Program-made: the position numbers
Source of the DNA: Octopus vulgaris
Lineage: Eukaryota
NCBI GenBank assembly: GCA_951406725.2
Contig: OX597828.1
Span: forward strand, 41,106,001-41,170,000
Length of the DNA stretch: 64,000 nucleotides
Reading direction: 5' to 3'
Shown here: in pieces, positions 59,101-64,000 of the stretch
Numbering within the stretch: the stretch's first letter is position 1
Layout of the letters: each line of letters begins with the position of its first letter

Positions 59101-62100
59101 TTATAATGATGCTGATGCTGGCTAAATTTCTTCCTCTAGGTCTGTTTATCAGTTGACCATGTTAGCGGTGCCTCATTTGATAACAACCCAAGGATGTATA
59201 GTGAATGTCTCCAGTATATGTGCCCTAAGAGCTGTAAGTCATTTCCAGAATATTTTTTTTTTTTAACTTTTATAATGGTATTGTTTAGAAAAACGATTGT
59301 ATAATACTGTTTAGATTTTCCTTCAAGATTAAATCCCAATTTCCATTTGGGAAAATGGAGAAAGCTTATGTTTCTCTTGAATTATGTAAATTTCAGAAAA
59401 TTACTAAGTCAGAGTGTGAAAGACTGGAAAAATTATTATTTCCTTGCTTGGAAACAGGTAAGGGTTAGCATCAGGAATAACATTCAACTGCAGAAAAATC
59501 TGCCTCAGTAAAACCTGATCTGACATATGCAAGCATGGGAAAGTAGTTTTTGAGATAACAATATAATAATAACGAAATTATTGTATACAGTGCTCAGGTG
59601 CACCAAAACTTGTCAGAAAGTGCATATAAAGTACATGCAGTAATATAGAAATGTCTGGAAAGCGAACAATGTATGAGTCAGATACATGCTTGTGTGTGTA
59701 TGGAGGGGAGAAAATCAAGTGTAGTGTTGGCGAATCTCAGGAAGCATGGAAGTTTTGAAGGATGCAGTGCTCCGACAACTAACAACCGATGCTGGCAGTT
59801 TGTTCCATGCTTCAGCAACTCTCAGCGTGAAAAAATGTTTCCTGAAGTCATGGGAGCTGTGCTGTTTTCTTACTTTGTAAATATGTCTACGGGTGTTAGA
59901 TGGGTGGAGTTTGAAAAGGTGCTCAGAGTTATTGTTTGATGATGATGATGATGATGATGATGTCTCTTGCAAAATCTATAATCCCATTCATACTACTTGT
60001 GAGTGAAACTACAATAAGAGCAAGGGCTATATTAGGATAAAAGCATTTATTTGTATCGTCAAGGCAAGCAATGCTAAATCAGCCCAGTAACAAGAGTGTG
60101 TTACAGGCCCTGTATTTTCAGAGCTTATGCATTTTCAAAGGCTCTGTACTAAATTCCTCCTTATCCTAGTCTTTAACTTTTATGAATTACTGAATGTTTT
60201 AATCTTTTAGTATTCAGATTTCTAAGTCAAATGTAATGCTTATTTACTCACATTATTTTGAATTAATCATGCATTATCTTGTAGCTTCAAGATATTGATA
60301 ATATGATTGTATATTTTTAGAATGGCATTGTAAGATAGGTGTGAGGGGCTGGATCTGGCTTGTTTGAATATAGAACAGGGGAAATATCTTGACCAGATTT
60401 GGCCAATTTTAATGCTAAGGGATTAAGGTTCATTCACAACTCAAAATAATTGAGCTTATCTTCCTTATAAGATCAGATGAATGAAATAAATTTGTTATAA
60501 ACACCACTGTAACAGCAATTGTTAGGATATGTGTTGGAGGTTGGCCTGTTACCAATTGTAACAGGTGTTGGTGTTGCAGATGTGCAAGATGAAAGAAGAA
60601 CAGTGTTCGAGGTTGTAAACAAATATTTATTTACCTTTACATATTGTTATAGCCAAACCACGATGGGTTGATATGTATAACTCGTAAAATATGCAAGGTA
60701 AAGAGAGATATCTCTTTTACTCTTTTCAGTCATTTGACTGTGGCCATGCTGGAGCACCGCCTTTAGTCGAGTACTTATTCTATCGGTCTCTTTTGCTGAA
60801 CTGTTAAGTTACACTGATGTAAACATACCAGCATCGGTTGTCAAGCGATGTTGGTGGTGGGGGGGGGGGCAAACACAGACACAAACATATACACACACAC
60901 ACACATATATATGTATATATATACATACATGTATATGACGGGCTTCTTTCAGTTTCCGCCTACCAAATCCACTCACAAGGCTTTGGTTGGCCCGAGGCTA
61001 TAGTAGAAGACACTTGCCCAAGGTGTCACGCAGTGGGACTAAACCTGGAACCATGTGGTTGGTAAACAAGCTACTTACCACACAGTCACTCCTACGCCTA
61101 TAGATTTTCCTTGTATAGGTGTGTTCGTCTTCTTGTCATTGTGTAGTAGTAAACCACAGATACCGATAGGGTAATGTTGTAGAGAAGAGAAAGTGAAGCT
61201 AGTGCAAGTGAGAGTGATGGGACGAAACAACTGCTTCGCTGGTGGGCTACCATAGTTGTCCCTCTGTGCCTTTTTATTTGATGATGGTGTTTCGTTTGGC
61301 TGATCAGCCAGACTTGGTTCTCATTAACTGACTTTGGCTTATGGAGTTCTTGTATTTATAACTATACAAAACTAGTTAGGAAAACAGATATACTGCAAAG
61401 ACAATGGATATACTTTGTGGGGATCGACTGTTATCTCAATTCCATTCTCCACTGCATACAAGAGGTTAGAAGGGTCAGGTGGCAAAGACATAAATCAGTT
61501 TAGCGAAGCCACGTGTTAAATGTAACTGTTATCACTATTGTTTCTCTGTGAGAAAACTGCTGTTGAAATATTATGGGAAATTTGCCAATTCAGGTTCGAA
61601 TCTACTCTGTGCATAAATGAAGTCACTGCAATACTGTAATGTTAAGCATCCTTCTAATATCAAATTGAGATTTTTACGTGGGTAAGGAACATTTTTATTG
61701 CATACAGGTCTTGGAGGTAAATTATCAATGTTTAGGTAAAAATAATTGTAGAAACATTGTCTTAATTTCAATTACTCTGCACTCTCCATTTTAGCTGATC
61801 TATATAGACTGGTTCTTCAAATAAGCATCTGGGTCCATAGAAATAATTATAATTTTGAACTTTGGTAGAACATACATCTAGTAACCCACAGGTGACTGGC
61901 TTGTATCTTCCATGTGAATTTATGACAAATTCTTCCTATTCAATTCAGTTTACCATTTGTATTTCAGTTCCCTGGAGTTCTAGCATACAATATGTCTAAA
62001 AGTGCTTTGGATCAATTCACCTGTACTGTAGCTCTTGGTATGTTGATTTTTATCCTCATTTCTTTCAAATATTTTTCTCTTTTCTTTTCAGTTCTGTGTT

Positions 62101-64000
62101 GTTTTGACCCTGGTCAAGCAGGCCTATGATTAAGTGTTCAGTTCTGTGTTGTTTTGAGCCTGGTCAAGCAGGCCTATGATTAAGTGTTCAGTTCTGTGTT
62201 GTTTTGAGCCTGGTCAAGCAGGCCTATGATTAAATGTTCAGTTCTGTGTTATTTTGAGCCTGGTTAAGTAGGCCTATGATTAAGTGTTCAGTTCTGTGTT
62301 GTTTTGAGCCTGATCAAGCAGGCCTATGATTAAATGTTCAGTTCTGTGTTATTTTGAGCCTGGTCAAGCAGGCCTATGATTAAGTGTTCAGTTCTGTGTT
62401 GTTTTGAGCCTGGTCAAGCAGGCCTATGATTAAGTGTTCAGTTCTGTGTTGTTTTGAGCCTAGTCAAGCAGGCCTATGATTAAATGCTCAGTTCTGTGTT
62501 GTTTTGACCCTGGTCAAACAGGCCTGTGATTAAGTGTTCCAGCCATTGTTGTATCTTGTTATTTTATGATGTGCTGAGTATTTTCCATCTTTCTCTGTTT
62601 TGCAGAGTTGGCATCGAAGAAAGTGCGTGTAAACAGTGTCAAGTAAGTCTCATATCTTCACATTAGTTCTGTTAATGTTCAGATATTTATACCATTATGT
62701 AGAATAAGTAATCCTTGTACCATTATGTAAATGAGTTGTGCCATGTGTAATGTTGCTTAGATTTTAATAAATAGCTTTTTGATGTTATATTTTGGTATTT
62801 ATAAAGGTGAATCCTGATGACTCTTAAGATAAAACTCGTCAGTTTGATTCTTATACCAAGCTATCACAGAGCCATGTGGTCCTAACTGCAGAGTCCAACT
62901 GTAAAGCAAGAATATGTTTATTAAATATCAAAATGAATTACTAAAGCTACCAATATTTTTAATATATTATCTTCTGTTAGTCAAGTTAGTGTTCAAATTT
63001 CTAGGGAACATTATAAATACTAACTAGAAATAAATGTGGTGTAAAAAAATCAATATTAGTCAATAGTTAAATATTATTTTAATTATTTCATTAAGTATGG
63101 GAGACAACTCTTGACATGCTTAAGCCTTATTATATCCTCATCAGTGAAATAGAGACTTCACTGTACTTGTTGAAATTGTAGATTTACACCGAAATGATAG
63201 AACAATCGCAAGATTGTACTTTGGTTAACATGGAAAAATAGACTTGTTTAGAGAATATATTACTTAGAGCAACCATCTGCATAAAAAAACTATAGTTAAT
63301 GTTAAAATATATTTTATTATCTTCACTCTTGACAATTGTTCTTGTATCTTTGGCAGGAATTGTTGGGTGGTATATCAGGAAACATCTATCTTGTGTTCTA
63401 TCCCATTGTGGGAACTAAATAGGATACCGCTTCATTCTAAAACACTTACTTGCTATCGTATCTATCAACTTGGTACCAATTCATAAACAGTGTTGTCTTA
63501 AATAATTACAGGTTAATTATCGTTATCTGAGATACTCAAAAATATTTTTTTGATGATAGGATTTGAACCCTTGATCTTTCTGTTAGTGAACCAATCCCCA
63601 AATAACTTGGCTTCCAGTGACTCTCCAGTGAAGTTTATTGTTCTCAGAGCAACTGATATCAGTCTTAGGTCAACCCTGATTAAGTAAACCCATGAACAAA
63701 GGCTCTCTAGCCATGACCATCCACTAACTTTCAGATAAAGTTTATATCAACCTTCACTATCCAGTATATCGTTCTCCTTTTTAAAGATAGTATTTCATGA
63801 TTTGAGTGATTTGGTTGCTACTTCTAGCAAGTTGAACAACTATGAAGATGCTCTCTCATTAGTTTGAAGGATTCTGAGATCATAGTGATAACTCAAAGTG
63901 GCACAACTGAAGGTTTCATCTTCATATAGAGTATATTTAGAGGAAGTTAGAATGATCTAACCCCCCCACCCTTCCAAATGTTATACTCACAGGAGCTGGG

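What the first reader, a model, noticed from the sequence alone, without database searches (positions are those of the whole stretch)
61918..62883. Gene-conversion tract makes SDR-C a B/A/B mosaic across the catalytic exon
Seen: SDR-C is B-like in exon 1 and its upstream introns (55002-55685 matches 32750-33425; 57150-57720 matches 34890-35480) and again downstream (63095-63780 matches 41295-41990). Between ~61918 and 62883, however, it is near-identical to the reverse complement of SDR-A 13284-14244. That tract includes exon 6 (FPGVLAYNMSK, one synonymous difference from A; B has FPGGLVYNMSK), the short minisatellite-filled intron 6 (568 vs 564 bp in A, 2082 bp in B) and exon 7. Inference: non-allelic gene conversion between inverted paralogs ~48 kb apart swapped the active-site exon.
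Basis: partly seen in the sequence, partly recalled or inferred. Interest (0 to 1): 0.7.

Follow-up and report, generated by a model that had tools for sequence, protein, structure and literature searches.

The report
Gene-conversion patch in octopus reductase cluster
Two oppositely oriented copies of a short-chain reductase gene in an octopus genome share a roughly 1-kb stretch, introns included, that is far more alike than the rest of the genes, which is an ordinary case of one gene copy overwriting part of another.

Summary
C 61915-62886 matches the reverse complement of A 13281-14247 with 37 mismatches and 9 gap columns in 974. Elsewhere A and C introns are about 69% identical or cannot be aligned. 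Informative sites switch from 28 AC|B: 80 BC|A upstream to 102: 8 in the tract (Fisher p = 9e-26).

The window is Octopus vulgaris, with three FabG-like SDR paralogs A(-), B(+) and C(+).

Non-allelic gene conversion between A and C is the best reading, with four corrections:
- Both tract ends are hard structural edges, not identity switches. C has unrelated sequence to the left. A lacks 1.6 kb to the right. The true tract length is therefore unknown.
- The direction is unresolved. B-C identity next to the tract (70-80%) is as low as inside it.
- The "B-like" flanks are themselves patchy (70-100%), so the cluster is a multi-event mosaic.
- At protein level the A/C form of exon 6 is the common octopod state and B is the outlier. 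The swap changed at most one residue.

An assembly artefact could not be tested. This is an ordinary new instance of a known process.

The parts
61915..62886 (+). Tract in gene C that is near-identical to gene A. It holds the last 53 bp of intron 5, exon 6, intron 6, exon 7 and the first 244 bp of intron 7.
   Evidence: 37 mismatches and 9 gap columns in 974 columns against A; 102 AC|B against 8 BC|A informative sites.
13281..14247 (-). Partner tract in gene A, in inverted orientation and about 48 kb away.
61968..62037 (+). C exon 6, which carries the catalytic Tyr and Lys (YNMSK).
   Evidence: One synonymous difference from A, at 62015.
62087..62539 (+). Minisatellite of a 50-bp unit, 9.1 copies, filling C intron 6 (62038-62605).
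   Evidence: One search shows nine units in both A and C, but the order of unit variants differs.
13629..14075 (-). Matching minisatellite in A intron 6, 9.1 copies, with one unit shortened by 6 bp.
62606..62642 (+). C exon 7 (ELASKKVRVNSV). A and B have Pro where C has Ser.
   Evidence: The single difference from A is at 62614.
61103..61914 (+). C-specific sequence that abuts the left end of the tract. It has no counterpart in A, in B or anywhere else in the window.
   Evidence: One search finds no hit in this interval. In one search the local alignment scores of 24-25 are no better than shuffled sequence (maximum 33).
62887..64000 (+). Part of C intron 7 that is shared with B (41077-42683 and beyond) but absent from A. 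It defines the right end of the tract.
   Evidence: A 13318-13623 matches B 40735-41039, and A 13143-13293 matches B 42684-42834.
38646..40834 (+). B exon 6, its 2082-bp intron 6 and exon 7. This is the divergent third copy, used as the comparison.
   Evidence: In the tract B is 69-79% identical to both A and C in non-coding columns.
63104..63749 (+). Block of 96.7% B-C identity in intron 7 (B about 41300-41950), including a perfect run of 109 bp.
   Evidence: None of 2000 shuffles reached a run of 109; the largest was 91.

Best explanation
The window holds three paralogous classical short-chain dehydrogenase/reductase genes of Octopus vulgaris. A (minus strand) and B are head to head, and C follows B in tandem. 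A segment of at least 972 bp was copied non-reciprocally between A and C by non-allelic (interlocus) gene conversion, meaning homologous repair of a break in one copy using the inverted paralog 48 kb away as template. The copied segment took exon 6, the whole minisatellite intron 6, exon 7 and adjoining intron.

The event is younger than every other A-C similarity. About 3.8% mismatch has accumulated since, spread over both copies.

Shown: the near-identity including neutral intron and repeat DNA, and the switch of informative sites.

Inferred:
- The mechanism is inferred.
- The direction is inferred. I lean weakly to A as donor and C as recipient.
- I infer that the hard edges reflect separate insertions or deletions that now hide the true ends: a C-specific replacement on the left, and a 1.6-kb segment missing in A on the right.

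The event sits in a cluster that shows several other patches of raised identity, so it is one episode of ongoing concerted evolution. At protein level it was nearly silent.
For: A-C identity in tract non-coding columns is 95.0% (101 columns) and 96.4% (303 columns). Around exon 4 it is 69.4% (232 columns), and most intron sequence is not alignable at all.

Informative sites are 102 AC|B to 8 BC|A in the tract and 28 to 80 upstream, p = 8.7e-26.

The 9-unit minisatellite is shared by A and C, while B has one unit.

Among the 18 tract sites outside the array where A and C differ, B polarises 14: 8 changes fall on A and 6 on C; at the other 4 all three copies differ. That is what divergence after a single transfer predicts.

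B and C share long alignable introns and a 1.6-kb intron 7 segment that A lacks, so B and C are the closer pair elsewhere.

Exon 5 separates the lineages at protein level:
- A has 3 mismatches to the O. bimaculoides A orthologue P0004 and 8 to O. sinensis P0005.
- C has 2 mismatches to P0005 and 7 to P0004.

The weak lean to A as donor rests on one residue: exon 6 position 4 is V in A, in C and in P0004, but I in the O. sinensis C orthologue.

Conversion that reaches into introns, and conversion between adjacent inverted paralogs, are documented in Caenorhabditis (PMC3966223, passages seen). Conversion has been proposed for argonaut reflectin and tyrosinase clusters (PMC9635652, passages seen).
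Against: Neither end shows the expected decline from high to baseline identity within homologous DNA. Both ends coincide with structural breaks. A classical two-ended homologous event is therefore not demonstrated, and a one-ended or end-joining repair cannot be excluded.

Before the event, A and C would have been only about 70-78% identical in these introns. That is low for starting homologous repair, unless the 124-bp stretch conserved in all three copies (62617-62740) or the arrays served as anchors.

The direction cannot be read from distances to B:
- B-C identity is 69-79% in the tract and 70-80% just outside it.
- A-B identity is 70-76%.

V at exon 6 position 4 is one mutational step from the I, A and G seen in the other B/C-lineage sequences, so it may simply be ancestral.

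Mismatches are somewhat uneven: 2 in 205 bp (62540-62744) against 10 in 142 bp (62745-62886). This could mean more than one event.

No reads and no octopus genomic DNA from other species were available.
Confidence: 0.8

Rival explanations
1. Assembly artefact. A stretch of A, or of A's other haplotype, was threaded into C during long-read assembly or polishing.
For: The published O. vulgaris assembly was built from Nanopore reads with NextDenovo, polished with Hypo and collapsed with purge_dups, in a genome with 68.68% repeats (PMC10700109, passages seen). Both ends of the tract in C are abrupt.
Against: - The two copies differ at 37 positions and 3 indels in 974 columns. That is about three times the reported heterozygosity of 1.22%.
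- The unit order of the two minisatellites differs.
- The patch sits in the correct orientation and position between exons 5 and 8 of C, with intact splice sites.
- A junction of unique C sequence with A-like sequence would have to be invented twice within 1 kb, well below the length of a long read.
- Cross-polishing cannot raise identity from about 75% to 96% or build an array.
Confidence: 0.06
2. The transfer was real but ran the other way: C was the donor and A the recipient.
For: Distances to B do not discriminate. B-C identity next to the tract is as low as A-B identity. Ser in exon 7 of C is shared with both O. bimaculoides proteins and with the O. sinensis C orthologue, while A carries Pro.
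Against: Exon 6 of A and C matches the O. bimaculoides A orthologue exactly, and differs by 1 residue from the O. sinensis C orthologue and by 2 from O. bimaculoides P0007. On both sides A's tract continues into sequence that still aligns with B, at 73% on the left and 81.6% on the right, with no step in A-B identity across the left edge. This evidence is weak.
Confidence: 0.25
3. There was no transfer. Exon 6 to exon 7 is a slowly evolving segment retained by A and C, and only B diverged fast, because B is decaying.
For: The A/C amino-acid state of exon 6 is the common octopod state. B has a 1-bp insertion that breaks exon 5. A 124-bp stretch around exon 7 is conserved in all three copies.
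Against: Introns and a minisatellite are 95-96% identical between A and C, while other A-C intron sequence is about 69% identical or not alignable. Outside the tract, B-specific changes in exons (13) are no more numerous than A-specific (18) or C-specific (14) changes. B is therefore not generally accelerated.
Confidence: 0.03
4. The patch arose by non-homologous or one-ended repair: template switching or synthesis from A, captured by end joining. The same event created the left junction at 61915.
For: The left end of the tract coincides to the base with the point where C loses homology to both A and B. C lacks the 236 bp that A and B share just upstream.
Against: The coincidence is equally explained by a later deletion or insertion in C that cut into a longer tract. 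No microhomology or filler signature was established. The right end is explained by the segment missing in A.
Confidence: 0.12

Closest known systems
Interlocus (non-allelic, ectopic) gene conversion between linked paralogs. Examples are the Caenorhabditis hsp16, hsp70 and col-12/col-13 pairs reviewed in PMC3966223 (passages seen). Human globin, CYP21A2 and opsin genes are further examples, recalled from memory and not from any call.
   Same: - A patch of near-identity sits inside otherwise diverged paralogs.
- The patch includes intron DNA.
- The paralogs are in inverted orientation on the same chromosome.
- The tract is about 1 kb long.
- The inferred tree differs between the tract and its flanks.
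   Different: Both tract ends are structural breaks rather than gradual returns to baseline identity. A 450-bp minisatellite makes up nearly half of the tract. Donor and recipient are not established.
Proposed conversion in octopod tandem clusters: the reflectin and tyrosinase genes of Argonauta argo (PMC9635652, passages seen).
   Same: The setting is a cephalopod tandem cluster of multi-exon genes. The shared sequence exceeds 1000 nucleotides and lies in the middle of the genes.
   Different: The gene family is different (SDR). Here the partners are inverted and are not neighbours, since B lies between them.
Classical SDR enzymes of the FabG-like / tropinone-reductase-like group. The closest solved structures are the C. 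elegans SDR family members 1spx, 1xhl and 1xkq (searched with the O. bimaculoides A orthologue P0004; E = 2.6e-46 to 4e-42).
   Same: The Rossmann motif lies in exon 2, the Ser region in exon 5 and YNMSK in exon 6. Each exon piece matches adh_short at consecutive profile positions.
   Different: The substrate is unknown. The name 'FabG' on the database records is automatic.

Membership tests
Interlocus gene conversion tract | Identity between the paralogs in the tract is far above their identity elsewhere, at neutral sites (introns, repeats) as well as in exons. | tested here: met
   A-C non-coding identity is 95.0% and 96.4% in the tract, against 69.4% around exon 4; there is no other A-C match longer than 350 bp.
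Interlocus gene conversion tract | Phylogenetic incongruence: the informative sites support a different pairing inside and outside the tract. | tested here: met
   AC|B to BC|A is 102:8 inside and 28:80 upstream, Fisher p = 8.7e-26. Outside the tract, however, the BC|A signal comes mainly from the exon 4 introns (55 sites). Exons 2 to 5 are nearly star-like, with 13 B-specific, 18 A-specific and 14 C-specific changes.
Interlocus gene conversion tract | The tract ends lie within homologous DNA, where identity falls back to the paralog baseline. | tested here: not met
   left of 61915 C matches neither A nor B; right of 62886 A has no counterpart. The ends are therefore hidden or were set by structural differences. 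This weakens the case for a simple two-ended conversion, but not the case for a sequence transfer.
Interlocus gene conversion tract | Non-reciprocity, with an identifiable donor and recipient. | not testable with these tools
   This needs orthologous DNA from other octopods. The open collection (genome contigs) holds only bacteria and archaea. Distances to B are uninformative. The one diagnostic residue is weak.
Interlocus gene conversion tract | The mosaic is real in the genome and not an assembly product. | not testable with these tools
   No reads were available.
Classical SDR (Pfam adh_short) | An N-terminal glycine-rich NAD(P) motif and the Ser / Tyr-x-x-x-Lys catalytic residues in an adh_short fold. 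| tested here: met
   exon by exon:
- Exon 2 scores 25.4 bits at profile positions 8-49.
- Exon 3 matches positions 53-82.
- Exon 4 matches positions 82-109.
- Exon 5 matches positions 111-139.
Each piece is below the 26.6-bit cut-off because it is only a piece, and exon 6 (23 residues) gave no hit. GASSGIG, NVSS and YNMSK are read directly from the sequence. The full-length octopod orthologues carry PF00106 and PF13561.

The most novel reading that the evidence does not exclude
The 50-bp minisatellite in intron 6 may not be a passenger. It could be the pairing anchor or break hotspot that keeps A and C exchanging sequence across 48 kb in inverted orientation, making a self-sustaining conversion island around the catalytic exons. 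B dropped out of the exchange when it lost the array, and is now decaying: its exon 5 frame is broken and its exon 6 has diverged. Exchange between inverted repeats would also predict occasional inversion of the 48-kb segment that holds B.
Probability: 0.12. Interest if true: 0.45.

Novelty: new member of a known kind. Interest (0 to 1): 0.22.

Why it matters
The practical value is for annotation and phylogeny. Trees or divergence dates for these octopus SDR paralogs will mislead if exons 6 and 7 are pooled with the rest. The cluster also shows that similarity between paralogs is patchy at a scale of a few hundred bases.

It adds a clean intron-level example of interlocus conversion in a cephalopod, between inverted copies that are not neighbours. 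It does not change what is known about the process, and the protein consequence is at most one conservative residue.

Tried and rejected
- **Direction from distances to B:** rejected. B-C identity does not step at the right edge. It is 70-80% at 62740-63139 and then jumps to 94-100% at 63140.
- **Direction from polarised differences:** uninformative, with 8 on A against 6 on C.
- **Register of the two minisatellites:** shifted alignments score as well as the in-register one, and the unit variants are ordered differently. The arrays confirm shared origin but not unit-by-unit correspondence.
- **Transposon ends or a target-site duplication for the 1.6-kb segment missing in A:** only a weak short repeat was found at its edges, which decides nothing between insertion and deletion.
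- **ORFs in the C-specific left flank:** only short stop-free stretches of 61-85 codons. This was not followed further.
- **Rfam over the whole window:** no family reached its threshold.
- **Run permutation test:** it is only just significant (observed 20, largest shuffled 19), because AC|B sites make up 130 of the 269 variable sites. The Fisher test carries the weight.
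Full report
**What the window is.** The exon 2 peptide of copy C is 100% identical to FabG-like SDR proteins of Octopus vulgaris, O. bimaculoides and O. sinensis. Mapping those database proteins back onto the window with tblastn gives two exact matches:
- The O. vulgaris record P0006 matches copy B exactly wherever it covers it.
- The O. vulgaris record P0003 matches exons 1-4 of copy C exactly.

The window is therefore O. vulgaris or something indistinguishable from it. 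It is not human-like.

Three paralogs are present:
- **A**, minus strand: exon 1 at 25184-25140, exon 9 at 11236-11078.
- **B**, plus strand: exon 1 at 29800-29844, exon 9 at 43753-43935.
- **C**, plus strand: exon 1 at 47327-47371, exon 7 at 62606-62642, and exon 8 onward beyond the end of the window.

A and B are head to head, and C follows B. Each exon was searched separately. Full-length comparisons used database proteins only.

**The observation.** It holds in every detail.
- A 13281-14247 and C 62886-61915 align at 95.3% over 974 columns, with 37 mismatches and 9 gap columns.
- Intron 6 is 568 bp in C, 564 bp in A and 2082 bp in B.
- Exon 6 differs between A and C only at 62015, a synonymous change.
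- B reads FPGGLVYNMSK.
- A and C each carry 9.1 copies of a 50-bp unit. B has one unit.

**Is it more than selection or chance?** Yes. In the tract, A-C identity at non-coding columns is 95.0% (101 columns) and 96.4% (303 columns). Around exon 4 it is 69.4% (232 columns), and most of the A introns cannot be aligned to C at all. Sites where A and C agree against B outnumber sites where B and C agree against A by 102:8 in the tract. In the four upstream exon cores the ratio is 28:80 (Fisher p = 8.7e-26).

Fast divergence of B alone cannot explain this. It would not raise A-C intron identity, and outside the tract B-specific exon changes (13) are no more frequent than A-specific (18) or C-specific (14) ones.

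At the left end, C loses homology to both paralogs.
- C 61103-61914 matches nothing in the window.
- Local alignment of that stretch to the A and B upstream introns scores no better than shuffled sequence.
- A 14248-14439 still aligns to B 38378-38592 at about 73%.
- Between the anchors C 60183 / B 37932 and C 61936 / B 38614, C has 1.7 kb that includes two dispersed repeats, in place of 681 bp in B.

At the right end it is A that stops. A 13318-13623 aligns to B 40735-41039, and A 13143-13293 aligns to B 42684-42834. A therefore lacks a 1.6-kb piece of intron 7 that B and C share.

The 972 bp are thus an island of three-way homology between two structural differences. The true extent of the copied segment is hidden. 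If A still had the 1.6 kb at the time of the event, the tract could have run as far as 63139.

**Direction.** If C were the recipient, B-C identity should step up on leaving the tract. It does not:
- 62740-62839: 70%.
- 62840-62939: 74%.
- 62940-63039: 70%.
- 63040-63139: 80%.
- 63140-63739: 94-100%.
- After 63739: 82-84%.

Upstream, B-C identity is also uneven: 84-99% around exons 2-4 and 70-85% around exon 5 and in intron 5. A-B identity where alignable is 70-76%. The two directions therefore predict the same distances.

Of the 18 A-C differences outside the array, B assigns 8 to A and 6 to C.

The only lineage marker is exon 6 residue 4. It is V in A, in C and in the O. bimaculoides A orthologue P0004. 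It is I in the O. sinensis C orthologue P0005, A in O. bimaculoides P0007 and G in B. That favours A as donor after the split from O. sinensis. But V is one mutational step from each of the other three residues and may simply be ancestral. I put A to C at roughly 0.55, C to A at 0.25, and the rest on repeated or non-classical events.

**A mosaic cluster.** A segment search on 4244 aligned B-C columns (85.4% identical overall) finds these blocks:

| C coordinates | B-C identity | Note |
|---|---|---|
| 55003-56811 | 94.5% | 1042 aligned columns |
| 63104-63749 | 96.7% | perfect run of 109 bp; 0 of 2000 shuffles reach it, largest 91 |
| 57332-57544 | 96.2% | |
| 62617-62740 | 96.0% | conserved in all three copies |

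Around exon 3, A and B are 95.3% identical over 213 bp, about 110 bp of it intron, although A is otherwise unalignable there. The A-C tract is thus one of several exchanges, and one of the youngest.

**Protein consequence.** It is small.
- Exon 6 of A and C is identical to the O. bimaculoides A orthologue (0 of 23 residues differ). It differs at 1 of 23 from the O. sinensis C orthologue and at 3 of 23 from an Argonauta protein.
- The G..V form is peculiar to B.
- In exon 7, C keeps Ser, like both O. bimaculoides proteins and the O. sinensis C orthologue. A and B have Pro.

'Swapping the active-site exon' therefore changed at most one conservative residue in C.

**Artefact?** This could not be tested without reads. 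The arguments against an artefact are:
- The copies differ at 3.8% of aligned bases, about three times the reported heterozygosity of 1.22%. The assembly is built from long reads (PMC10700109, passages seen).
- The two arrays differ in unit order.
- The patch keeps the gene order, orientation and splice sites of C.

**What is known.** Conversion between linked paralogs is well documented, including inverted paralogs and tracts that reach into introns (PMC3966223, passages). It has been proposed for octopod reflectin and tyrosinase clusters (PMC9635652, passages). A search for 'gene conversion', 'octopus' and 'paralogs' listed 21 papers. In the 10 shown I saw none on SDR genes (listing only). 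I make no wider claim about what is in print. Supplements were not consulted.

**What stayed unchecked:**
- There was no DNA-level outgroup.
- Read support for the assembly was not tested.
- Exons 8 and 9 of C lie outside the window.

**Verdict.** This is a real, statistically secure interlocus conversion patch and an ordinary instance of a known process. Its ends and direction are unresolved.

Noticed in passing
window 37094-37188 (B exon 5): B has one extra T (ACCATTGTTAGC against ACCATGTTAGC in A and C), which breaks the exon 5 reading frame. The public O. vulgaris model P0006 keeps only the last six residues of this exon (IDGLRT) and so drops the NVSS catalytic-Ser region. B may be decaying, or this may be an uncorrected Nanopore indel.
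   Followed up: partly
window 57725-57810, 59140-59233, 61968-62037 (C exons 4, 5, 6): The public O. vulgaris model for C (P0003, 122 aa) ends ...NVNLRSLEF. That is exactly what results from joining exon 4 directly to exon 6 and skipping the intact 94-nt exon 5, which shifts the frame into a stop. The model for C looks truncated by an annotation or splicing quirk.
   Followed up: partly
window 63104-63749 and about 41300-41950: A 646-bp block of intron 7 is 96.7% identical between C and B, with a perfect run of 109 bp. It is flanked by sequence only 70-84% identical and is absent from A. It could be a second conversion tract or a conserved intronic element. It has no Rfam match and no convincing ORF.
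   Followed up: partly
window 19330-19541 (A) / 33794-34006 (B) / 56648-56854 (C): Exon 3 and about 110 bp of flanking intron are 95.3% identical between A and B and 92.8% between A and C, although A's introns are otherwise unalignable. In the intron part, A agrees with B against C at 6 sites and with C against B at 1. This suggests an older exchange that involved A.
   Followed up: partly
window 62617-62740: Exon 7 and the first 100 bp or so of intron 7 are about 96-99% identical in all three copies, better conserved than most exons. This may be a splicing or regulatory element, or the homology anchor for the exchanges.
   Followed up: no
window 47753-49063 and 49325-50628: A large inverted repeat lies inside intron 1 of C. 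Its 1.3-kb arms are 98.9% identical and are separated by about 260 bp. A possible alternative first exon, similar to the N-terminus of O. sinensis P0005, lies just beyond it at 50942-51022.
   Followed up: no
window 25140-25184 and 29800-29844: The first exons of A and B face away from each other, 4.6 kb apart. The two genes may share a bidirectional control region.
   Followed up: no
window 15789-16784; 46429-46917; 59785-59830; 10299-10343: There are further tandem arrays. One with a 24/68-bp unit fills about 1 kb of A intron 4. Another has a 45-bp unit in 10.9 copies between B and C, with single related units near A and inside C intron 5.
   Followed up: no
window 1232-2102, 7695-8076, 9707-10115, 30692-31079, 35911-36309, 60712-61102 and others: A dispersed repeat of about 400 bp with an internal microsatellite occurs about ten times in the window at 70-93% identity. 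A second family of about 250 bp (441-699, 19684-19953, 32381-32648, 48251-48541, 58693-59010) reaches 97%. Several copies sit in the SDR introns and interrupt the paralog alignments.
   Followed up: no
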